The notes below the pieces were generated by a model that was given only the letters and a program-made list of their open reading frames with translations, made no database searches and had not been told where the DNA came from. From positions 1-23,515 of the forward strand of contig CAYUTF010000051.1 in assembly GCA_964447495.1 (NCBI GenBank): a stretch of DNA of 23,515 nt. The letters are read 5' to 3'. Of the stretch, positions 2,103 to 23,294 are shown piece by piece. This DNA comes from an uncultured archaeon. GTDB taxonomy: Archaea; Asgardarchaeota; Lokiarchaeia; Sigyniarchaeales; SOKP01. The translations under genes and the position numbers were made by a program. Positions within the stretch are counted from its first letter, which is position 1. Every line of letters begins with the position of its first letter.

Positions 2103-4073
2103 ATGGTAGAAGCGAAAGTTGCTAAAGATAACGATGAAATTCGAATCTTCGTTGCTGTCTGTCAGTGAGGTATAAACATTGCTGAAATAATTGATACAAA
2201 AGCACTAGTAGAATTCACTAAATCTTTGCCAAATGTTGTTGATGCTTTGGATTATATTAGTCTGTGTACTGAATCCGGAGCAGAGTTTATTAAGCAAAAT
2301 ATGATTGAAAGTAACGCTAATAGACTTGTTGTAGCATCTTGTACTCCAATCACCCATGAACCGGTTTTTAAAAGTGTTTTAGAAGCAATGGGAATAGATC
2401 CCTCATACTTGGAATTTGTTAATATTCGAGAGCATGCAAGTTTTGTTCATAGGCAAGATAAGCCAGGAGCACAAAGAACTGCCGAAGATGCTATTAAATC
2501 TGGTGTTGCTCGAGCAGCTGTATTAGAGCAAATCTTGGTAAAAGAAGTAGATATTACTAAGAAAGCATTAATAATTGGTGGAGGTGTTGCTGGACTATCA
2601 GCAGGTATTGACTTAGCTGATGAAGGTTTTGAAGTTTTTCTTGTTGAAAAAAGCCCCACTATTGGCGGTAAAATGGCAATGCTCGATCGTACTTTCCCTA
2701 CTGATGATTGTAGTATCTGAATTCTCGGTCCTGTTATGCTTCAGTCTGCAAGAAGTCCCGGATTAAACATTTATACATACAGTGAAGTAGAGGATGTTTC
2801 TGGATTTGTTGGGAATTTTAAAGTTAAAATTCGCAAAAAAGCAAGATATGTAAATAATGATTGTAATGGATGTGGCTCATGTTTCGAAGTGTGTCCTGCT
2901 TACGGGTATGATGAATTTAATGAGGGTATGAATCCTCGTAAAGCTATATATGTTTCATTTGCCCAAGCAGTTCCGTCAATGGCTCAGATAGATATGAGTA
3001 AATGTATCAAATGCGGAATGTGTCAGCAGGTATGTGAAGTGAATGCTATAGACTTCAATCAAAAAGATGAAATCATAGAATTAGAAGTTGGCTCAATCAT
3101 AGTTGCTACTGGTTGGGACGAATATGAACCTGAAACTGGATATTTGGGATATAATAAATATCCTAATGTAATAACTCAAATGAAGCTTGAACGCATCTTG
3201 GCACCGAACGGACCCACTTTAGGTCACCTTGTACGCCCATCTGATGGTAAAAGGCCAGAAAAAATTCTTTTTATACAATGTGTGGGGTCAAGAGATTTAA
3301 ATAAGCAGACTTATTGCAGTGCTGGAGTATGTTGTATGATTTCAATAAAAAATACAAAACTCATAAAACAACATTATCCCGATGCGGATATAACTGTAGC
3401 GTATATGGATATAAGAGCTGCCGGAAAAGACTATGAAGAATATTATACAGCTTCACGAAAAGAAGGCATCAAATACGTAAGAACAAATATTTCTAAAATA
3501 TACGAGGATCCTAAGACTCATAATTTAAAAGTAATTCTACAAAATACCTTGAGTAATACGGGCTTAAAAGAGTTTGAGTATGATCTAGTAGTATTATCGT
3601 GTGCTATGGTACCAGCCATAGGTGTTGAAAAAGTTAGTAAATTACTAAAACTTGAAACAAGCCAAGATGGATTTTTTAAAGAATTCCATTCTCGATTGAA
3701 TCCTATAGACACAAAGATACCTGGAATTGTGCTTGCCGGCGTCGCTCAAGGGCCTAAATCAATATCTGAGTCAATATCTCAGGGAAGAGCTGCAGCATCT
3801 TCTCTTGCGAGAATTTTGGGTAAAGATAAATACAGAATACTTTTAATTCGAGCCACAGTAGATAAAGAAAAATGCGCTAAATGCGGTTTATGCGAGTTAA
3901 ATTGTCCGTATGATGCGATAATTTTAAATCCTGATGGTGCGGAAGTGAATGAAATATTATGTCGTGGTTGCGGTTCGTGCTTAGCCAATTGTCCATCAGA
4001 AGCGATAACACTTAGATATTATCGCGAACCCCAATATGAGAAGCAAATAGATGCTATATTAGAGGAAATTTAA
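2103..4073 (+). CDS. hdrA: Heterodisulfide reductase subunit A (HdrA)-like flavo-iron-sulfur selenoprotein, 656 aa, Sec at codon 22 (TGA 2166-2168) and codon 206 (TGA 2718-2720)
   Basis: ATG 2103 and ORFs 2226-2720 and 2736-4073 are one frame, separated only by TGA. N-terminus RIFVAVCQ[TGA]GINIA matches the HdrA CxCGxNIA motif; TFPTDDCSI[TGA]ILGP matches TFPTxDCxxCIL. Also ASCTP, FAD motif GGGVAG, four CxxCxxCxxxC ferredoxin motifs, QCVGSRD...YCSAGVCC; ends in TAA. Confidence 0.95.
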
Positions 4074-4086: not shown

Positions 4087-4551
4087 ATGTCGACTAATAG
4101 TGAAATGAAAATTATTACTTTCATGTGTTGGAAATGAGGATATGGAGCAGGAGATATGGCAGGAACTATACGAGCTCAATATCCTGCTACAATTAGACCA
4201 ATAAGAATAAACTGTACCGGACGTGTTACTCCTAGCTTAATGATGCGAGCAATTGGCAAAGGTGCTGATGGAGTAATCGTTGCTGGATGATATGAAGGAG
4301 AATGTGATTACGAAACCGGTAATTTAATTGCGGCAAAAAACGTACAATACACGAAAGAAATATTAAAAACTGCAGGTATATCTCCGGAGCGAATACAAAT
4401 GTTCCATTGTAGTGCAGCGGAAGGCCAAAGATTCCAAGAAGAAGTAACTCGTATCTCTCAAGTTATTGAACGTTTAGGCAGCAACCCAATGAAAGAATCA
4501 ATATCTTTAGAAAAGGAAAAAAGTAAACCTAAAGACGAAAAACAGAAGTAA
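4087..4551 (+). CDS. mvhD: Methyl-viologen-reducing hydrogenase delta subunit (MvhD/VhuD/FlpD family, [2Fe-2S]) selenoprotein, 154 aa, Sec at codon 17 (TGA 4135-4137) and codon 68 (TGA 4288-4290); absent from the ORF track
   Basis: Manual translation: MSTNSEMKIITFMCWK[U]GYGAGDMAGTIRAQYPATIRPIRINCTGRVTPSLMMRAIGKGADGVIVAG[U]YEGECDYETGNLIAAKNVQYTKEILKTAGISPERIQMFHCSAAEGQRFQEEVTRISQVIERLGSNPMKES...KQK*. Matches MvhD motifs CxxCxYxxAD, CxGRV, GADGVxVxGCxxGxCxY, ERxxxxxxSAxE; SD present; TAA at 4549-4551. Confidence 0.95.
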
Positions 4552-4554
4552 TAA

Positions 4555-4623
4555 TCCGAAAGAATGAATCTTATGAAAAAATAATAGTTGTAAGATGACA
4601 AACCATAAAGCAATGGTTTCGGA
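4555..4623 (+). promoter_or_regulatory. Eukaryote-like SECIS element in the 3' UTR of hdrA-mvhD
   Basis: AUGA 4564-4567; 9-bp helix AUCUUAUGA (4568-4576) with UUGUAAGAU (4588-4596); loop AAAAAUAAUAG (4577-4587); GA 4597-4598; lower helix UCCGAAA (4555-4561) with UUUCGGA (4617-4623). Confidence 0.8.
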
Positions 4624-4630
4624 ATAAAAA

Positions 4631-4651
4631 TTTTATCTATTTTTTAATTTT
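4631..4651 (+). terminator. Probable archaeal oligo-T terminator of the hdrA-mvhD transcript
   Basis: T-rich tract TTTTATCTATTTTTTAATTTT just downstream of the SECIS-like structure. Confidence 0.4.
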
Positions 4652-4764
4652 GAATCCCTATTCATAATATATCAAAAAGATTGTAAATCTTTTTAAATTG
4701 GGGTGTCTTGTATAATCGTGTTAGAAATCATCTAAATAGAAAAAACATATAAAGTGAAAAAATA

Positions 4765-8191: not shown

Positions 8192-9730
8192 ATGAAACTA
8201 AGAGTCAAAACAATTAATTTTGAAACAGGAAACACTAAGGATGTCGTAATAAATAAAAAGGATGCCCAAGAATTGGGCCAAAAGGCAGGAGAGCGTGTTT
8301 ATATAAAAAACATTAAAGCTACCTCTCTTGAGAATAAATATTGGGTAGCTATAATTCAGATTGATTATTCAAATTCAATTGTAAAACCCGGCGAAATTGG
8401 AATTTTTATTGATATTCTTAGAGAGAAAAAAGAGCTTATTGATGGAGCAGTTATTTCAGTAAAACCAGCAGATCCACCTGATTCGTTTAGATTTATAAAA
8501 AAGAAAATTAATGGAAAGAAATTATCAAGCGAGGAGATAAATAGCATAATTGCAGATGCGGTATCGGGATCTCTATCTAAAATTGATTTAGCTGCTTTTA
8601 TTACCAGTGTATCAATAAATGGAATGGATAATGAAGAAATGACGGCACTCACTTTATCAGAAGTAAGAAGCGGAGATGTATTCTATTTCGGAATGGATGT
8701 ATATGATAAACACAGTACGGGAGGCGTCCCAGGCAATAAAGTATCCCTAATTATCGTTCCAATTGTGGCTGCTGCTGGTTTAACGATTCCAAAATCATCT
8801 ACTAGAGCAATAACCTCACCATCAGGAACAGCAGATTCTATGGAGACCTTAGCCCCAGTGGCTTTTAAGTCAGATCAACTAAAAGAGATCGTATCGAAAG
8901 AGAATGCATGCATAATTTGGGGAGGTGCTCTTAATACCTCGCCTGCTGATAATATCTTAATTGAAATTGAGAGACCATTACATATGGATCCTATTGGATT
9001 AATGATCCCTTCTATTCTAACTAAGAAGCTTTCCTTAGGTGTGAAGAAACTCGTATTGGATATCCCTGTTGGTCAAGGAACAAAATTTTCTACTCCGGAT
9101 GATGGAAAACAGTTTGCCTATATATTTAAAGAAATAGCTAGAAATGTCGGTATAGAGGCTGAGTGCGCTTTAACGCTCGCACATCAACCAATTGGTCATG
9201 CTATAGGACCAGCCTTAGAAGCAAAGGAAGCATTGAAATTATTAATGGACTATGACGCAGGACCTAACTCTTTAATTGAAAAATCTACAGAATTAGCGGG
9301 GATTCTTCTTGAAATGGGTGGTAAAGCACAGAAGGGGAAAGGACAAACTTTAGCGAAAGAAATCTTAAAATCAGGAAAAGCTTATGAGAAAATGAAGAAA
9401 ATAATTCAAGCTCAAGGGGGTAATCCCGAAATAAAACCTGATGATATTAAACTTGGACCCCATATTAAAGAGTTCTATACTACCAAAGAAGGGCATATTA
9501 CTGAAGTGAATAATGCTTTAATTAACCAAATTGCAAAAGCAGCGGGTTGTCCTCATTCTAAAAGCGCTGGGGTAGAACTCTTTAAAAAACAGGGAGCAAG
9601 AATAAAACAAGGAGATTTAATATTTAGAATTTATTCTGATAGCCAAAATCGATTGAAAAAAGCAGAGAAAATCTATAACTCTACAGGGGGCCCAATAATC
9701 TTAGGTGGAATGATGATTGAGAGAATATGA
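8192..9730 (+). CDS. deoA: AMP phosphorylase (archaeal thymidine phosphorylase family)
   Basis: Extra N-terminal domain, DKHSTGGVPGNK, PKSSTRAITSPSGTAD, QPIGHAIGPALEA; 512 aa is typical of archaeal AMPpase; TGA stop after ...MMIERI. Confidence 0.93.
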   Translation: MKLRVKTINFETGNTKDVVINKKDAQELGQKAGERVYIKNIKATSLENKYWVAIIQIDYSNSIVKPGEIGIFIDILREKKELIDGAVISVKPADPPDSFRFIKKKINGKKLSSEEINSIIADAVSGSLSKIDLAAFITSVSINGMDNEEMTALTLSEVRSGDVFYFGMDVYDKHSTGGVPGNKVSLIIVPIVAAAGLTIPKSSTRAITSPSGTADSMETLAPVAFKSDQLKEIVSKENACIIWGGALNTSPADNILIEIERPLHMDPIGLMIPSILTKKLSLGVKKLVLDIPVGQGTKFSTPDDGKQFAYIFKEIARNVGIEAECALTLAHQPIGHAIGPALEAKEALKLLMDYDAGPNSLIEKSTELAGILLEMGGKAQKGKGQTLAKEILKSGKAYEKMKKIIQAQGGNPEIKPDDIKLGPHIKEFYTTKEGHITEVNNALINQIAKAAGCPHSKSAGVELFKKQGARIKQGDLIFRIYSDSQNRLKKAEKIYNSTGGPIILGGMMIERI

Positions 9731-9975: not shown

Positions 9976-11475
9976 ATGGAATTTTCTCCTAAAGAAATCT
10001 ACAATAATTATATTAGTAAAAAAATTGATAGATCAACTCTCATTTCTCAATTAATCTCTATAATCGAAAGCAGTGATAATATAAGCAAAAGAATTAAGAG
10101 TATCGATACTTTAGCTAGTTTAGAAGTAAAAGATAAAAGAGTTTTTAAATTAATCGAGAATCTTTCGATATCTGATTCAAATGAATTTGTTAGATTAAGT
10201 GCATTAAAATATATAAGTAATTATTTTTTGGAATATTCCCTAGAGCCAATGAAATGGGCGTTTTTTCATGAAGAAATTCTACAATGTTTATTAGTAATAG
10301 CTGATACTTTAGGAAGTATCAATGACCCTGCTTCACGGGAATTTCAAATTCTAGTTTTAAAAAACATAGAAATTGAAGAATTTAAAAAACATATCAAATT
10401 AATGCTTGAGAGTGATAATCTTGATGACTTAAATAATAATGAAATATCAGGCATGATTAAAGATTATCTTATCATTAAGGAATTAAAAAGAAAATATGGA
10501 CATATAAATTTTATAGTAAACAACGGTAGAGTCTGTGAATTAGATCTCTCAGATATAAGCAGTCATGTATTTGGTTGGAATGCAATAAAGAAATTTCCTG
10601 ATTTTATAAGTGAATTGAAATTCTTGAAGGTTTTAGATCTGAAATTCAATAGATTAATAAACATTCCTGAAATATTAGGTGCATTAGTTAATTTAGAGTC
10701 CTTAGACTTAAGTTATAATAAAATTAAAAAACTACCTGATTCAATTGGCTTATTGAATTCACTTCATACTTTGAAATTAAGATACAATCAACTAAAATCT
10801 ATACCAAACTCAATTAGTAAGATTCAAAATCTAAAAAAATTCGATTTAAGATCTAATCAGTTAAATTCACTCCCAAATTCCTTAAATGAAATATTTAGTC
10901 TTGAAGAATTAGATTTGCATGGTAATAATTTAAAAAGTTTCAATATTAATTTACCTTCATTGACAACTTTGCATTACCTAGAATTAGGATTAAATCATTT
11001 AGATAAAATACCCGATTGGGTTAAAAATATTAAAAATTTAGTGAAATTAGGATTAGGAGGGAATAAATTAAAAATCCTTCCTGATTGGATTGGGTTATTG
11101 CAATCCCTCGAGGAATTACATATATATGATAATGAGCTCGTAACACTCCCAGAGACTATCGGCAAATTAAAGAATTTGCATGAGTTAAGTTTGTGGAATA
11201 ACAATCTCTCCTCTCTTCCACAATCTTTCTCTTCATTATCAAAATTAAAAGTATTAAATTTAAGTTGGAATAATTTTGATGAACTTCCCACTTGGATTGG
11301 CTCACTTAAATCTCTTGAAACATTGAGCTTATGGGGAAATAAATTAGAGAATCTTCCGAAATCTTTATCTCAATTGAGTTCCTTAAGGATATTGGATTTA
11401 AACTTTAATAAAATAAGTATTATCCCAGATTTTTTAAGACAACTAGAAAAAGAAGGATTAATTATTTATAAGTAA
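9976..11475 (+). CDS. Leucine-rich repeat protein with an N-terminal HEAT-like helical domain (~12 LRRs of 23 aa)
   Basis: Repeats LxxLxLxxNxLxxLPxxIxxL; N-terminal LIENLSISDSNEFVR...MKWAFFHE. Confidence 0.92.
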   Translation: MEFSPKEIYNNYISKKIDRSTLISQLISIIESSDNISKRIKSIDTLASLEVKDKRVFKLIENLSISDSNEFVRLSALKYISNYFLEYSLEPMKWAFFHEEILQCLLVIADTLGSINDPASREFQILVLKNIEIEEFKKHIKLMLESDNLDDLNNNEISGMIKDYLIIKELKRKYGHINFIVNNGRVCELDLSDISSHVFGWNAIKKFPDFISELKFLKVLDLKFNRLINIPEILGALVNLESLDLSYNKIKKLPDSIGLLNSLHTLKLRYNQLKSIPNSISKIQNLKKFDLRSNQLNSLPNSLNEIFSLEELDLHGNNLKSFNINLPSLTTLHYLELGLNHLDKIPDWVKNIKNLVKLGLGGNKLKILPDWIGLLQSLEELHIYDNELVTLPETIGKLKNLHELSLWNNNLSSLPQSFSSLSKLKVLNLSWNNFDELPTWIGSLKSLETLSLWGNKLENLPKSLSQLSSLRILDLNFNKISIIPDFLRQLEKEGLIIYK

Positions 11476-11523: not shown

Positions 11524-12903
11524 ATGGAAATCAATCCAAGAAATTTATATAAAGATTACACCAAAAAGATCATTGATAAAGATTCACTTATCAAACAGCT
11601 GATTGCTTTAATCGAAAATAGTAGGAATATACATATAAGAATTCAAAGTATTCGAATTATTGGCCAATTAGATTTAAGTTCTAATGATTATTTAATAAAA
11701 CCGAGTAAACTTTATCATATATTAGAGAATCTCTTGATCTCTGATTCAAATGATCAAATAAGAAATGAGGCAGCAATCCTCCTTAACAAATATTATAAAA
11801 AAATCTCATTATCCCCAATGAAATGGGCTCTACTTCATGATGAGTCTCCTGAATGTTTAAAAACCATCCATGCATCTCTAATTGAAATTATAGGTGAATT
11901 AGAAAGAAGTAATGATGAAGAAACAGTTTCTATTCTAAAAAATGAATTATTTTCAATCGACGATAAGGATTTTAAAATTAATATTCACCAATATATCACA
12001 TTTGGAAATAAAAAATTTTTAACAAAGAGTAAAATCACCGAAATTTTAATAAATTTTTTCACGATAGTATATCTAAGAAAGATATTTTGGCGTCTAAAAT
12101 ATCGTGTGATAAATTCTAGGGTTGTCGAATTAGATTTTAGCTTTAAAGTTCTAACTAAATTACCTGAAGCTCTAAAATTTCTTAAATCACTCAAAAGATT
12201 GACTTTGAAATATAATCAAATCTTAGAGATTCCTGATTGGATTGGTGAACTCACATCTTTAGAATATTTAAACTTAAATATTAACAATGTTCCAAAATTA
12301 CCAAATTCATTTTCCAATTTGCATCATCTAAATGAATTATTATTATGGAAAAACGAGCTAGAAACTCTTCCGGAAGGTATAGGTAATTTAACGCAATTAA
12401 GAAAGTTGAATTTACGCCTCAATCAAATAAAAAAATTACCAAATACGTTAACTAACTTAAGCAATCTTGTAGAATTGGATTTACATGATAATAGATTGCA
12501 AATTCTCCCAGAATCAATAACTCTCTTAAAATCTTTAGAAAAATTAAACTTAAGTTGGAACATATTGCACGAACTTCCCGATTCTATACAATATTTATCG
12601 TCATTAAAGATTTTAGATATAGAAAGAAACGAATTGCGGTCAATTCCCTCCTCATTTGGTAATCTTAGCTCACTAGAAGTGCTAAATTTAAGTGAAAATC
12701 AATTAGTAGAATTACCCGAGACAATAGGAAGATTAAATTCTCTAAGAATTTTAAATTTATCTCGAAATGAACTAAAATACCTACCACATACATTAAGTTC
12801 TCTTCAATTACTGGAAGAGCTATATTTAGTAGATAATCCTTTAGAAGAGATTCCGTCTACCTTACGAAAATTAGAGGATAATGGTCTTAAAATTTTCATT
12901 TAG
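11524..12903 (+). CDS. Leucine-rich repeat protein, tandem paralog of the upstream gene (~10 LRRs)
   Basis: Same architecture: MEINP, ILENLLISDSNDQIR, MKWALLHDE, 23-aa LRRs, C-terminal cap LRKLEDNGLKIFI. Confidence 0.92.
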   Translation: MEINPRNLYKDYTKKIIDKDSLIKQLIALIENSRNIHIRIQSIRIIGQLDLSSNDYLIKPSKLYHILENLLISDSNDQIRNEAAILLNKYYKKISLSPMKWALLHDESPECLKTIHASLIEIIGELERSNDEETVSILKNELFSIDDKDFKINIHQYITFGNKKFLTKSKITEILINFFTIVYLRKIFWRLKYRVINSRVVELDFSFKVLTKLPEALKFLKSLKRLTLKYNQILEIPDWIGELTSLEYLNLNINNVPKLPNSFSNLHHLNELLLWKNELETLPEGIGNLTQLRKLNLRLNQIKKLPNTLTNLSNLVELDLHDNRLQILPESITLLKSLEKLNLSWNILHELPDSIQYLSSLKILDIERNELRSIPSSFGNLSSLEVLNLSENQLVELPETIGRLNSLRILNLSRNELKYLPHTLSSLQLLEELYLVDNPLEEIPSTLRKLEDNGLKIFI

Positions 12904-20964: not shown

Positions 20965-21930
20965 ATGGATTTAAACCCAATAAATCTTTATGAAAAGTTT
21001 TGCAATACGGAAATTGATAAAACATCATTAATAAAATCTCTTTCAGTATTAATTGAAGATTCTAATGATGATACCATTAGAATTCAGGCAATTAATATAT
21101 TAAAAAAATTGGGCATTAAAACTACTTATATTTTTAAAATAATGGAAAGCTTGTTGCTTTCTGATACAAATGAAAAAATAAGGAATAATGCTGCTACTTA
21201 TATAGGGGCTCTTTTTATTGAAAAATCGTATAATGTAATAAAATGGGCAATTCAACATGAAACCTCCTATGAGTGCGTAATCACATTGATAAATACTCTT
21301 AGGAAAATACAAAATAATGATTCCAAAGAACTCCTAATTTCTGAAATTTCAAAAATTAAGAAATTAAATAAATCTATAGCCTATAAGCAACATATCTTCA
21401 AAAAATATAAAAAAGGATTAAAAAAAGTATTTAAAATGAAAAATATAGAAGAATTTTCCATAAACGAATTGGCAGAGATCTTCATTAATTATAAAACAGT
21501 CATAAATTTAGCGAATATGTTTCCTAATTTTTATTTTGAGTTAGATACTGAAAATGGACTCGTTTCCGAGTTAGATTTAGCAGATTATCTTCAATATGAA
21601 GTTAAAGGAACTCCTTGGGGTTGGAAAAATAACATAAAAACCCTTACCGAAATTAGAGGACTTGGAAATTTGAAATATATAAAAAAAATCGACTTATCAA
21701 ATAATTTAATTGAATATATAGATGGCCTTTTAGAACTTAAGAATTTAAAGACTATAATTTTAGCAAACAATAAAATTTATGATCTTGAAAATCTAAAATA
21801 TCTCAAATCACTTTCGAATCTCCGTTATATTGATTTAAGTGGTAATGAAATTTCAAAAAAGCTCTCAGAAATAGACTTTAAACCGAACATTAAAGTTATT
21901 TTAGAAACATTTCATGAGCACTTTGAATGA
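20965..21930 (+). CDS. LRR protein of the same helical-domain plus LRR family, with a short SDS22-like array (~3-4 LRRs)
   Basis: MDLNP, IMESLLLSDTNEKIR, IKWAIQHE; LRRs IKKIDLSNNLIEYIDGL, LKTIILANNKIYDLENL, LRYIDLSGNEI. Confidence 0.88.
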   Translation: MDLNPINLYEKFCNTEIDKTSLIKSLSVLIEDSNDDTIRIQAINILKKLGIKTTYIFKIMESLLLSDTNEKIRNNAATYIGALFIEKSYNVIKWAIQHETSYECVITLINTLRKIQNNDSKELLISEISKIKKLNKSIAYKQHIFKKYKKGLKKVFKMKNIEEFSINELAEIFINYKTVINLANMFPNFYFELDTENGLVSELDLADYLQYEVKGTPWGWKNNIKTLTEIRGLGNLKYIKKIDLSNNLIEYIDGLLELKNLKTIILANNKIYDLENLKYLKSLSNLRYIDLSGNEISKKLSEIDFKPNIKVILETFHEHFE

Positions 21931-21956
21931 ACCTAATTAGTATGCTTAAAATTAAT

Positions 21957-21974: not shown

Positions 21975-23294
21975 TTATTTTTCAATTAAAGCTGTTTTAC
22001 CTGATCCCCACACACCAAGTGCTCTGCCTAATTCTTTGTGCTCCTTAGCGGCATCTTTTACTGGGATACCTTTCATTACTGCGTCAATAGCCTGCCTAAA
22101 AGCTTTAGCTCCATCAATAGGTCCATCTGGATGGCTATGAATTCCACCACCGCTCCCAATTAAAATATCCTTACCTGCTTCACTCATACATTTCTCAACC
22201 ATTCCTGGTGTGATCCCTCCTGAAGGCATAGGAAGAGTTGGTTTAATATGTTGAAGTCTATATCGTAATGCTTTGAGATTTTGTTCATAACGTTCATCTA
22301 AAATCTCTGCTTTTCCGTAAGGAGCAGGAATCACCACAGTATCAGCCCCACAAATTCGTGGAAGTTTAGCCAACGTTAACATGCTCGTCATGCCTGTCCA
22401 TTCTCCCCCAAAATATGCTCCAGCAAAATCCATATGCCCTAATATTGGTACTTTAATCGATGGGTCCTCAGCTAATTGTCTTAAAGCTTCAAATCCAGCG
22501 GTAAGAAAGTTAATCATTAAAGCATTTGCCCCTAATTCAATCATTTTATCAGCATATTCAAACATATCTGGAAACTTGGTAGTAATATTAATTGTATATA
22601 ATGTCTTCTCTCCCTTTTCTGAATCAGCTCTATCAATACCTTCCATAACTGCTACAATTCTATCTTCCAATGTGTTAAAGGAAGGATTCGAAATTAACTC
22701 ATCATCTTTAACGACATCACAACCACCAACAGCAGCTTTATAAACAAGATCCGCAGCAACTTCGCATGTGTGTCCCGTGCATGGCTTTACCATATTATTC
22801 AATAACGGTCTTTCTGGAACCTTTAATAGCTCTCGAAGTCCATCTATTCCAAATTTAGGACCTTTAAAATCTTGAAGGTATTCTTTTGGGAAGGCTAAGT
22901 CAACCAATTTAAGTCCATGGGTAATAGAAATATTTCCAATCACAGTTGTGAATAACATGGGTATTCCCATTCCTTTAATATTTACGATGGGAAATGCAAT
23001 CTGAACAAAATAATAACGATCTTTTATATCTTTTGGTATTACGTATTCATAGTGAGGGAGTTCATATACACCAATTACTCTAGCGACGTGATGCTTTCTA
23101 ACTTCAGCAGTTTCAGCAGGAACTCTTACCCACGTACCTGTTGATTGTTCTATAGCCGCAAATCGAGACAAATAATTGACATTCATTCCTTTTGGGCGTT
23201 TTATGATATAGCTTGCTATAATGTATTTTTCTAAATCGATACCATCCAAACCAATAGCTTCAGGAACATCCAAATATTGTTCTGTACTATCCAT
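21975..23294 (-). CDS. RuBisCO-like protein (form IV RLP)
   Basis: AAIEQSTGTW, FKGPKFGIDG, DVVKDDE, PSGG and GGGIHSHPDG show the RuBisCO fold; KPCTG (K177 equivalent is C), HMDF (R295 equivalent is M) and loss of H327 argue against a true carboxylase. Confidence 0.9.
   Translation of the reverse strand: MDSTEQYLDVPEAIGLDGIDLEKYIIASYIIKRPKGMNVNYLSRFAAIEQSTGTWVRVPAETAEVRKHHVARVIGVYELPHYEYVIPKDIKDRYYFVQIAFPIVNIKGMGIPMLFTTVIGNISITHGLKLVDLAFPKEYLQDFKGPKFGIDGLRELLKVPERPLLNNMVKPCTGHTCEVAADLVYKAAVGGCDVVKDDELISNPSFNTLEDRIVAVMEGIDRADSEKGEKTLYTINITTKFPDMFEYADKMIELGANALMINFLTAGFEALRQLAEDPSIKVPILGHMDFAGAYFGGEWTGMTSMLTLAKLPRICGADTVVIPAPYGKAEILDERYEQNLKALRYRLQHIKPTLPMPSGGITPGMVEKCMSEAGKDILIGSGGGIHSHPDGPIDGAKAFRQAIDAVMKGIPVKDAAKEHKELGRALGVWGSGKTALIEK

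What the first reader, a model, noticed from the sequence alone, without database searches (positions are those of the whole stretch)
4555..4623. Eukaryote-type SECIS (AUGA/GA kink-turn core, A-rich apical loop) in an archaeal 3' UTR
Seen: AUGA (4564-4567), a 9-bp helix with two G-U pairs, loop AAAAAUAAUAG, then GA (4597-4598), closed by a 7-bp helix UCCGAAA/UUUCGGA. The core begins 12 nt after the mvhD stop. Known: this is the eukaryotic SECIS layout (tandem G-A core, AAR loop), not the methanogen GAA/A type or the bacterial in-frame type. Differences from the eukaryotic consensus are a shorter upper helix (9 bp against ~11-12) and an extra hairpin CCAU-AAAGCA-AUGG (4603-4616) on the 3' side, which makes a three-way junction.
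Basis: partly seen in the sequence, partly recalled or inferred. Interest (0 to 1): 0.8.

Follow-up and report, generated by a model that had tools for sequence, protein, structure and literature searches.

The report
Known Asgard SECIS, three-way-junction base
This is the selenocysteine-insertion RNA signal already described for Lokiarchaeota, sitting behind an hdrA-mvhD gene pair; the only fresh point is that its base is a conserved three-way junction.

Summary
The fold is better than chance: MFE -14.1 kcal/mol, z -3.8.

The element at 4555-4623 fits every published feature of the 'lokiSECIS' (Mariotti 2016, PMC4989117):
- AUGA, a 9-bp stem, and GA;
- an 11-nt loop that starts AAAAA and ends AG;
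- a position 12 nt after the stop of mvhD/vhuD, the second gene of an hdrA-vhuD pair.

The pair carries four in-frame UGA codons, and this is the only such element in the window. The genome has tRNA-Sec, SepSecS and a Sec-containing selD. The nearest relatives are Promethearchaeota (Lokiarchaeota) MAGs.

The eukaryote-like reading is therefore right, but it has been known since 2016 and was surveyed in over 400 Asgard genomes in 2024 (PMC11227280). This scan has already filed the same kind of element on another piece of this genome.

- A closing helix plus a 3'-strand hairpin, forming a three-way junction, recurs with covariation.
- A G-C/U-A/A-U pair just below the core gives a canonical k-turn with a 3-nt bulge.
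- The topology is that of a k-junction.

I found no mention of this in the texts I could read.

The parts
2103..4073 (+). hdrA (656 aa) with two in-frame UGA codons at 2166-2168 (residue 22) and 2718-2720 (residue 206, the canonical HdrA Sec position)
   Evidence: Pfam Fer4 and FAD/NAD-binding families
4087..4551 (+). mvhD/vhuD (154 aa) with two in-frame UGA codons at 4135-4137 and 4288-4290; it starts 13 nt after the hdrA stop, behind a GGAGG
   Evidence: Pfam FlpD E 1.3e-42; orthologues at 77-84% identity all carry 2 TGA
4549..4554 (+). tandem stop codons TAA TAA
4555..4561 (+). 5' strand of the closing (C) helix; pairs with 4617-4623
   Evidence: covariation across relatives
4562..4562 (+). 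G proposed to pair with C4599 (k-turn position -1b:-1n)
   Evidence: 99 of 101 distinct elements pair at this register (GC 80, UA 13, UG 3, CG 1, AU 1, GU 1)
4563..4565 (+). proposed 3-nt k-turn bulge (A, then the A and U of AUGA)
   Evidence: inference
4566..4567 (+). GA of AUGA; proposed sheared G.A/A.G pairs with G4597 and A4598
   Evidence: invariant in 18 of 18 orthologues; pairing geometry inferred
4568..4576 (+). 5' strand of the 9-bp upper (NC) helix
   Evidence: 5 of 9 pairs change on both sides within the genus, 9 of 9 across the family
4577..4587 (+). 11-nt apical loop, AAAAA at the start and AG at the end
   Evidence: matches the lokiSECIS description in PMC4989117 section 11
4588..4596 (+). 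3' strand of the upper helix
4597..4598 (+). 3' GA of the core
   Evidence: invariant
4599..4599 (+). C that pairs with G4562
4600..4602 (+). AAA linker (A4602 can instead extend the side hairpin)
4603..4616 (+). side (T) hairpin, 4-5 bp with a loop containing GCA, inserted in the non-bulged strand
   Evidence: 96.7% of cells paired and 4 of 4 pairs change on both sides; 27 stem variants
4617..4623 (+). 3' strand of the closing helix
4631..4651 (+). T runs (4631-4634, 4640-4645, 4648-4651), a likely archaeal oligo-T terminator that would keep the element inside the transcript
   Evidence: similar T tracts follow the orthologous elements; function inferred. The bacterial-type terminator scan found nothing here

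Best explanation
The element is the SECIS of a bicistronic hdrA-mvhD mRNA in a Lokiarchaeia-type (Promethearchaeota) Asgard archaeon. It is a lokiSECIS.

Proposed mechanism:
1. The element is transcribed with the two genes, upstream of an oligo-T terminator.
2. It folds into a k-turn-type core: a G-C pair, a 3-nt bulge, and tandem G.A/A.G pairs. A 9-bp helix with an A-rich 11-nt loop sits above the core.
3. Below the core lies a three-way junction made of a closing helix and a short side hairpin in the 3' strand.
4. The folded RNA recruits the archaeal Sec elongation factor with Sec-tRNA(Sec), either directly or through a k-turn-binding protein.
5. The four UGA codons, 276, 429, 1846 and 2398 nt upstream, are then read as selenocysteine.

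Shown here: the sequence features, the conservation and covariation of all three helices, the exclusive link to UGA-containing genes, and the presence of the Sec machinery.

Inferred: the k-turn geometry, the binding partner, and the action on the hdrA codons.
For: Sequence and fold.

The element matches every published lokiSECIS feature (PMC4989117 section 11).

Covariance model R1:
- It hits the window once, at 96.3 bits and E 6e-19. The next hit is 17.7 bits, E 0.1, with filters off.
- It hits 5 places in the own genome. The regex adds 3 more.
- Of these 8 places, 4 follow hdrA-mvhD pairs with UGA codons. One follows a vhuU-like ORF after a NiFe hydrogenase large subunit. Three follow small ORFs with UGA.
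- 131 of 151 genomes of the order have a hit, 130 of 131 in the same family, with 3-7 hits per genome as a rule.

Covariation:
- In the genus alignment A1, 5 of 9 upper-stem pairs change on both sides.
- In the family alignment A2 (64 distinct rows), 92.6% of cells are paired and 20 of 20 pairs change on both sides. Slid controls give 35-50%.

Three-way junction in samples chosen by protein, not by RNA:
- 33 of 46 mvhD paralogue loci.
- 65 of the 66 orthologue loci that have a regex core, out of 80 loci.
- Shuffled flanks give 23-25%.

Sec machinery: tRNA-SeC lies next to SepSecS on contig C19, and selD has one TGA.
Against: - No experiment exists for any Asgard SECIS.
- No Rfam SECIS family matches, even at E up to 10. 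The authors of the lokiSECIS also reported this for eukaryotic models.
- RNA contigs from three metatranscriptomes cover parts of hdrA and mvhD of relatives, but none bridges the element. Its presence in the transcript is therefore inferred.
- Alignment A2 was both selected and fitted by a model that contains the junction, so its counts lean towards it.
- Within the genus, the closing helix and side hairpin are conserved in sequence and show no compensatory change.
- 11 of 46 and 14 of 80 protein-anchored loci failed my regex.
Confidence: 0.9

Rival explanations
1. The element serves only mvhD. The two UGA codons of hdrA, 1.8-2.4 kb upstream in the preceding cistron, are recoded by another, unrecognised signal, or hdrA is made as fragments.
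For: The distances are long and a cistron boundary lies between. No experiment shows action across cistrons in archaea.
Against: There is no second match in the window with filters off; the next best hit is 17.7 bits. The gap between the genes is 13 nt. All four hdrA-mvhD pairs of this genome have one element, always behind mvhD. The same was reported for all Loki pairs (PMC4989117 section 11) and for almost all Asgard pairs (PMC11227280 section 14).
Confidence: 0.06
2. It is a 3' stabilising or terminator hairpin, or a general k-turn protein site (for example L7Ae autoregulation, or a C/D-box-like sRNA), with no role in recoding.
For: It lies at the 3' end before T runs. The weak Rfam hits are to C/D snoRNAs (19.4 and 14.7 bits, far below their thresholds), because the AUGA/GA core resembles box C/D k-turns.
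Against: In this genome all 8 elements lie behind ORFs with in-frame UGA. The conserved non-pairing AUGA/GA and the A-rich loop are not needed for a terminator. There is no D box (CUGA) or guide arrangement. The bacterial-type terminator scan found nothing at this place.
Confidence: 0.03
3. The three-way junction is a by-product of A/U-rich flanks and shared ancestry, and only the published core, stem and loop matter.
For: Shuffled flanks reach my junction score in 23-25% of trials. Within the genus there is no compensatory change in these two helices. Most elements share CCGA/UCGG.
Against: The observed frequencies are 65 of 66 and 33 of 35 loci with a core. There are 41 variants of the closing helix and 27 of the side hairpin that keep pairing. 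Paralogues in one genome use unrelated sequences for both helices. Other families of the order, which the model did not hit, show the same layout (L024, L127, L128, L137, L139).
Confidence: 0.12

Closest known systems
lokiSECIS of hdrA-vhuD pairs (Mariotti et al. 2016, PMC4989117); 'type I eSECIS-like' of Huang et al. 2024 (PMC11227280)
   Same: AUGA, a 9-bp stem, an 11-nt loop starting with adenines and ending AG, GA after the stem, a position just behind vhuD, and a single element for the gene pair.
   Different: Nothing in the published features differs. The closing helix, the side hairpin and the G-C pair below the bulge are not mentioned in the sections and passages I read. I could not see the figures or the 2016 supplement.
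Eukaryotic SECIS (type I)
   Same: AUGA...GA core read as a k-turn-like motif, unpaired adenines in the apical loop, 3' UTR position, and action at a distance on several UGA codons.
   Different: The upper helix is 9 bp instead of the longer eukaryotic one. There is no Rfam SECIS match. A hairpin is inserted in the 3' strand. The core fits a canonical 3-nt-bulge k-turn closed by a Watson-Crick pair. No SBP2 is present; only two L7Ae-family genes were found.
k-junction of TPP riboswitches (Wang et al. 2014, PMC4005666)
   Same: [quoted passage not shown] G.A/A.G pairs lie 3' of the loop. The linker between the third helix and the C helix is short or absent, which would allow coaxial stacking (table; definition from section 12).
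   Different: Function and sequence are unrelated. The insertion lies one base pair below the bulge, behind a 1-4-nt linker. The 3D fold is not known here.
Euryarchaeal SECIS (Methanococcales, Methanopyrus)
   Same: It lies in the 3' UTR of the same gene families. The VhuD versions also carry AUGA and GAC/AAC next to an extra stem (PMC4989117 section 11).
   Different: There is no GAA_A bulge and no run of G-C pairs in the upper stem; the window's upper stem has one G-C pair.

Membership tests
lokiSECIS (Mariotti 2016) | AUGA directly 5' of the stem, and GA (or AA) directly 3' of it | tested here: met
   4564-4567 and 4597-4598; invariant in 18 of 18 orthologues
lokiSECIS (Mariotti 2016) | 9-bp stem and 11-nt apical loop | tested here: met
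lokiSECIS (Mariotti 2016) | First five loop nucleotides mostly A; last loop nucleotide G, mostly preceded by A | tested here: met
   the loop starts AAAAA and ends AG
lokiSECIS (Mariotti 2016) | Lies close behind the stop of a selenoprotein gene; one element behind vhuD for an hdrA-vhuD pair | tested here: met
   12 nt after the stop; a single hit in the window
lokiSECIS (Mariotti 2016) | Genome encodes the archaeal/eukaryotic Sec pathway | tested here: met
   tRNA-SeC, SepSecS (475 bits) and selD with TGA; PSTK and EFsec not searched
lokiSECIS (Mariotti 2016) | Directs Sec insertion at UGA | not testable with these tools
   no experiment for any Asgard SECIS in the papers read
Eukaryotic SECIS (Rfam SECIS families) | Match to the family covariance model | tested here: not met
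   0 matches at gathering score; no SECIS family among the 5 matches at E up to 10
Eukaryotic SECIS (Rfam SECIS families) | SBP2 as binding protein | tested here: inconclusive
   only 2 L7Ae-domain genes in the genome, taken to be L7Ae and eL30 but not checked; the published searches found no SBP2
Euryarchaeal SECIS | GAA_A bulge between two stems, and consecutive G-C pairs in the upper stem | tested here: not met
   read from the sequence
k-turn / k-junction | C helix, 3-nt bulge, tandem G.A and A.G, NC helix | tested here: met
   met at the level of sequence and covariation only: the -1b:-1n pair is kept in 99 of 101 elements, against 18-63% in neighbouring registers
k-turn / k-junction | Third helix inserted in the non-bulged strand | tested here: met
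   met at the level of secondary structure
k-turn / k-junction | Kinked 3D geometry, cross-strand hydrogen bonds, T helix coaxial with C helix | not testable with these tools
   needs probing or a solved structure
C/D box sRNA | C box RUGAUGA, D box CUGA, and a guide between them | tested here: not met
   only sub-threshold Rfam hits (19.4 bits against a gathering score of 90); no D box in the sequence

The most novel reading that the evidence does not exclude
The Asgard SECIS is not a shortened eukaryotic stem-loop. It is a k-junction: a canonical 3-nt-bulge k-turn whose non-bulged strand carries a conserved hairpin with a GCA-containing loop, stacked on the closing helix.

On this reading, the side hairpin and the junction are a second recognition surface for the still unknown archaeal SECIS reader (L7Ae or eL30 plus EFsec, or a new protein). 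This surface was lost on the way to eukaryotes when SBP2 took over.
Probability: 0.4. Interest if true: 0.55.

Novelty: new member of a known kind. Interest (0 to 1): 0.3.

Why it matters
As a SECIS it adds nothing new. It is one more copy of a signal known since 2016.

The junction could matter for an open question: which protein reads the SECIS in archaea that lack SBP2. A canonical k-turn closed by a Watson-Crick pair is the preferred site of L7Ae-class proteins. A conserved side hairpin also gives concrete mutants and a defined RNA of about 70 nt for binding and structural work. Search models that include the junction also find these elements cleanly; here the true hit scored 96 bits against 18 bits for the best false hit in the window.

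Tried and rejected
- **Rfam.** The whole window at gathering score gave nothing. Positions 4480-4720 at E up to 10 gave only chance-level hits: C/D snoRNAs, a CRISPR repeat, a leader and a miRNA.
- **Promoter and terminator scan.** The bacterial-type scan gave no more than shuffles do, and nothing at the element.
- **RNA runs.** Three metatranscriptome runs held small shares of the stretch. Laid at 88% likeness, their contigs cover pieces of hdrA and mvhD from relatives. One ends at 4546 and none spans 4555-4623. This is no evidence either way about the transcript end.
- **MFE-based junction call.** Calling the junction from the MFE with 55-nt flanks was too loose: 65 of 85 observed against 241 of 850 shuffles. 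I replaced it with a geometric enumeration.
- **Model R1 in other families.** With strict filters it found nothing in the three other families of the order, 0 of 19 genomes. The protein-anchored loci of those families do show the layout, so this miss reflects the narrow model.
- **2016 supplement.** The zip was too large to read.
- **Literature on the junction.** I searched SECIS + 'three-way junction' + archaea (3 papers, none relevant). SECIS + k-junction gave only Huang 2024, which cites it for GA_AA pairs. SECIS + Asgard + junction gave nothing relevant. I also ran term searches inside both key papers and the 2026 review.

Full report
**Observation.**
- mvhD ends with TAA at 4549-4551, followed by a second TAA.
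- AUGA lies at 4564-4567.
- A 9-bp helix (4568-4576 with 4588-4596, two G-U pairs) carries an 11-nt loop that starts AAAAA and ends AG.
- GA follows at 4597-4598.
- A small hairpin lies at 4603-4616, and 4555-4561 pairs with 4617-4623.

RNAfold returns this three-way junction as the MFE. The only difference is that U4617 joins the side hairpin. The MFE is -14.1 kcal/mol against -5.75 +/- 2.18 for 200 shuffles, z -3.83, and one shuffle folds as well.

**Context.** Read with TGA as Sec, 2103-4073 is a 656-aa HdrA with U at residues 22 and 206. 4087-4551 is a 154-aa MvhD/VhuD with U at residues 17 and 68. Pfam gives FlpD at E 1.3e-42 for the second protein. It gives ferredoxin plus FAD-binding families for the first. 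The two genes are 13 nt apart, with a GGAGG between them.

The genome (3.81 Mb, 31% G+C) has the Sec pathway:
- a tRNA-SeC next to SepSecS on contig C19;
- a selD with one in-frame TGA.

The closest public relatives of the MvhD are MAGs titled Promethearchaeota, the current name for Lokiarchaeota, at up to 88% identity.

**What it is.** Mariotti et al. 2016 (PMC4989117; abstract, sections 10, 11 and 17, and term passages read) describe the 'lokiSECIS' as follows:
- always AUGA before a 9-bp stem;
- an 11-nt apical loop whose first five positions prefer A and whose last is an ultraconserved G, mostly preceded by A;
- GA (AA in VhuU) after the stem;
- a position close behind the stop;
- for the invariably tandem hdrA-vhuD pairs, a single element behind vhuD.

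The window's element meets each point. Huang et al. 2024 (PMC11227280; abstract and sections 7, 14 and 16 read) found eSECIS-like structures in 85.1% of Asgard selenoprotein genes from more than 400 genomes. They also state that hdrA and frhD/vhuD almost always share one. The scan's own notes on another piece of this genome reached the same verdict.

**Tests made here.** I aligned 18 orthologous elements of the genus. Five of the nine upper-stem pairs change on both sides, while AUGA, GA and much of the loop are invariant.

A covariance model of this alignment (R1) gave these results:
- It hits the window once, at 96.3 bits and E 6e-19. With all filters off, the next hit has 17.7 bits. hdrA therefore has no element of its own.
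- In the own genome it hits five places. A core-only regex adds three more.
- Four of the eight follow hdrA-mvhD pairs with 2-3 plus 2 UGA codons.
- One follows a vhuU-like ORF (motif DCUxxCxxH) behind a NiFe hydrogenase large subunit.
- Three follow small ORFs with UGA and no Pfam family above threshold.
- Across 151 genomes of the order, 131 have hits. That is 130 of 131 in the window's family and 0 of 19 in the other three families under strict filters.

No Rfam family matches, SECIS families included. This agrees with the 2016 report that eukaryotic models do not detect these elements.

**The junction.** It is a constant feature.

I enumerated a perfect closing helix of at least 4 bp plus an enclosed hairpin of at least 3 bp, in tight geometry.
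- 80 of 85 distinct regex-defined elements score 8 or more, against 388 of 1700 flank shuffles. Many of these elements had been picked by R1, which contains the junction, so I repeated the test on loci chosen by protein only.
- Of 46 loci of UGA-containing mvhD paralogues (three are duplicates), 33 have core plus junction. Two have a core but fail the strict rule.
- Of 80 orthologue loci from the public genome collection, 66 pass the regex and 65 of those have the junction, against 324 of 1320 shuffles.
- Of the 14 misses, 12 show the element by eye with two internal mismatches in the upper stem. The one failure among the 66 was a wrongly picked core.

In the model-fitted alignment of 64 distinct elements, all 20 pairs change on both sides. 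The share of cells paired is 87.5% for the closing helix, 94.6% for the upper helix and 96.7% for the side hairpin. With slid partners it is 35-50%. This count leans towards the model.

Paralogues inside one genome use unrelated sequences for both helices. Across 101 distinct elements there are 41 variants of the inner closing helix and 27 of the inner side hairpin. The side loop very often contains GCA.

Within the genus these two helices are conserved in sequence and show no compensatory change. The covariation evidence therefore comes from paralogues and other genera.

**A canonical k-turn.** The base two positions before AUGA pairs with the base after the 3' GA in 99 of 101 elements: G-C 80, U-A 13, U-G 3, C-G 1, A-U 1, G-U 1. 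Neighbouring registers pair in 18-63%. These two positions played no part in selecting the elements.

In the window this pair is G4562-C4599. It leaves a 3-nt bulge (A4563, A4564, U4565) before the tandem G.A/A.G, which is the standard k-turn layout. The side hairpin is then an insertion in the non-bulged strand, one pair below the bulge, usually with no linker to the closing helix (table).

Wang et al. [quoted passage not shown] The topology here fits. The 3D fold is inference.

**Is the junction in print?** I found no mention of it.
- The main text of the 2016 paper has no 'junction' or 'lower stem'. It uses 'extra stem' only for Methanococcales VhuD.
- The 2024 paper models only core, upper stem and loop. 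[quoted passage not shown]
- The 2026 review repeats the type I/II models.
- Three full-text searches gave nothing relevant.
- I could not see the figures or the 2016 supplement. I did not open the 2024 supplements. The junction may be drawn there.

**Mechanism and rivals.** The best reading (0.9) is a functional SECIS for all four UGA codons of the operon.
- Only two L7Ae-family genes are present. The literature found no SBP2.
- A role for mvhD alone (0.06) is disfavoured by the absence of any second element.
- A plain terminator or general k-turn site (0.03) is disfavoured by the exclusive link to UGA-containing ORFs.
- A junction that is a by-product of A/U-rich flanks (0.12) is disfavoured by its frequency and by the variety of sequences that keep pairing.
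- Whether the element lies inside the mRNA is inferred from the T runs at 4631-4651. The RNA contigs were uninformative.

**Verdict.** This is a correct observation and a correct but already published interpretation. The conserved three-way, k-junction-like base is a modest addition worth a structural test.

Noticed in passing
L002-L005, L007, L009, L011, L012, L014, L020; G000 contigs C5, C34, C76: In 10 of the 20 orthologous loci L001-L020, and in three other elements of this genome, the first in-frame stop of the upstream ORF is the UGA inside the AUGA core, so termination would occur within the SECIS. The window itself has TAA TAA 12 nt upstream.
   Followed up: partly
G000:C48:18184-18267 (-) = L033:1502-1584; small ORF L033:1605-1718 (-): A full element (42 bits, with junction) lies between divergent genes. 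The only ORF before it is a 36-aa CxxC...CxxC zinc-ribbon-like peptide whose last codon is UGA followed directly by UAA. This could be a C-terminal Sec or an orphan element.
   Followed up: partly
G000:C34:12393-12482 (-) = L034; ORF L034:1576-1779 (-): A 68-aa ORF with an N-terminal hydrophobic stretch and the motif GGGGUGC lies before an element. It has no Pfam family and is a candidate small membrane selenoprotein.
   Followed up: partly
G000:C1, ORF L105:1281-1754 (-), element near C1:137762 (-): A 158-aa ORF with two adjacent UGA codons (motif GCUU) has no Pfam family. It lies next to a ferredoxin-like gene. The closing helix of its element is weak, but the side hairpin is 5 bp.
   Followed up: partly
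G000:C55:11915-13006 (+) and about 140 nt downstream: selD has Sec in the motif HGUSCK. The RNA behind it has AUGA, a shorter stem with an apical ministem (the published SPS type), GA, and again small hairpins on the 3' side inside a closing helix in the MFE fold.
   Followed up: partly
G000:C19:37873-39343: The tRNA-SeC gene lies directly beside the SepSecS gene.
   Followed up: no
window 9976-11475, 11524-12903, 20965-21936 (+): Three paralogous proteins share a similar N-terminal region followed by leucine-rich repeats. Another LRR protein lies on contig C48. No family search was run.
   Followed up: no
window 8192-9730 (+) and 21975-23294 (-): By eye these look like an AMP/thymidine phosphorylase and a RuBisCO-like large subunit, which would be parts of the archaeal AMP salvage route. 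This was not tested with any family search. The first ends at a TGA with no element nearby, so TGA also serves as a stop in this genome.
   Followed up: no
side-hairpin loops of 101 elements: The loop of the side hairpin very often contains GCA (for example GCA, AAAGCA, GAGCA, CGCAA). It may be a recognition or tetraloop-like motif.
   Followed up: partly
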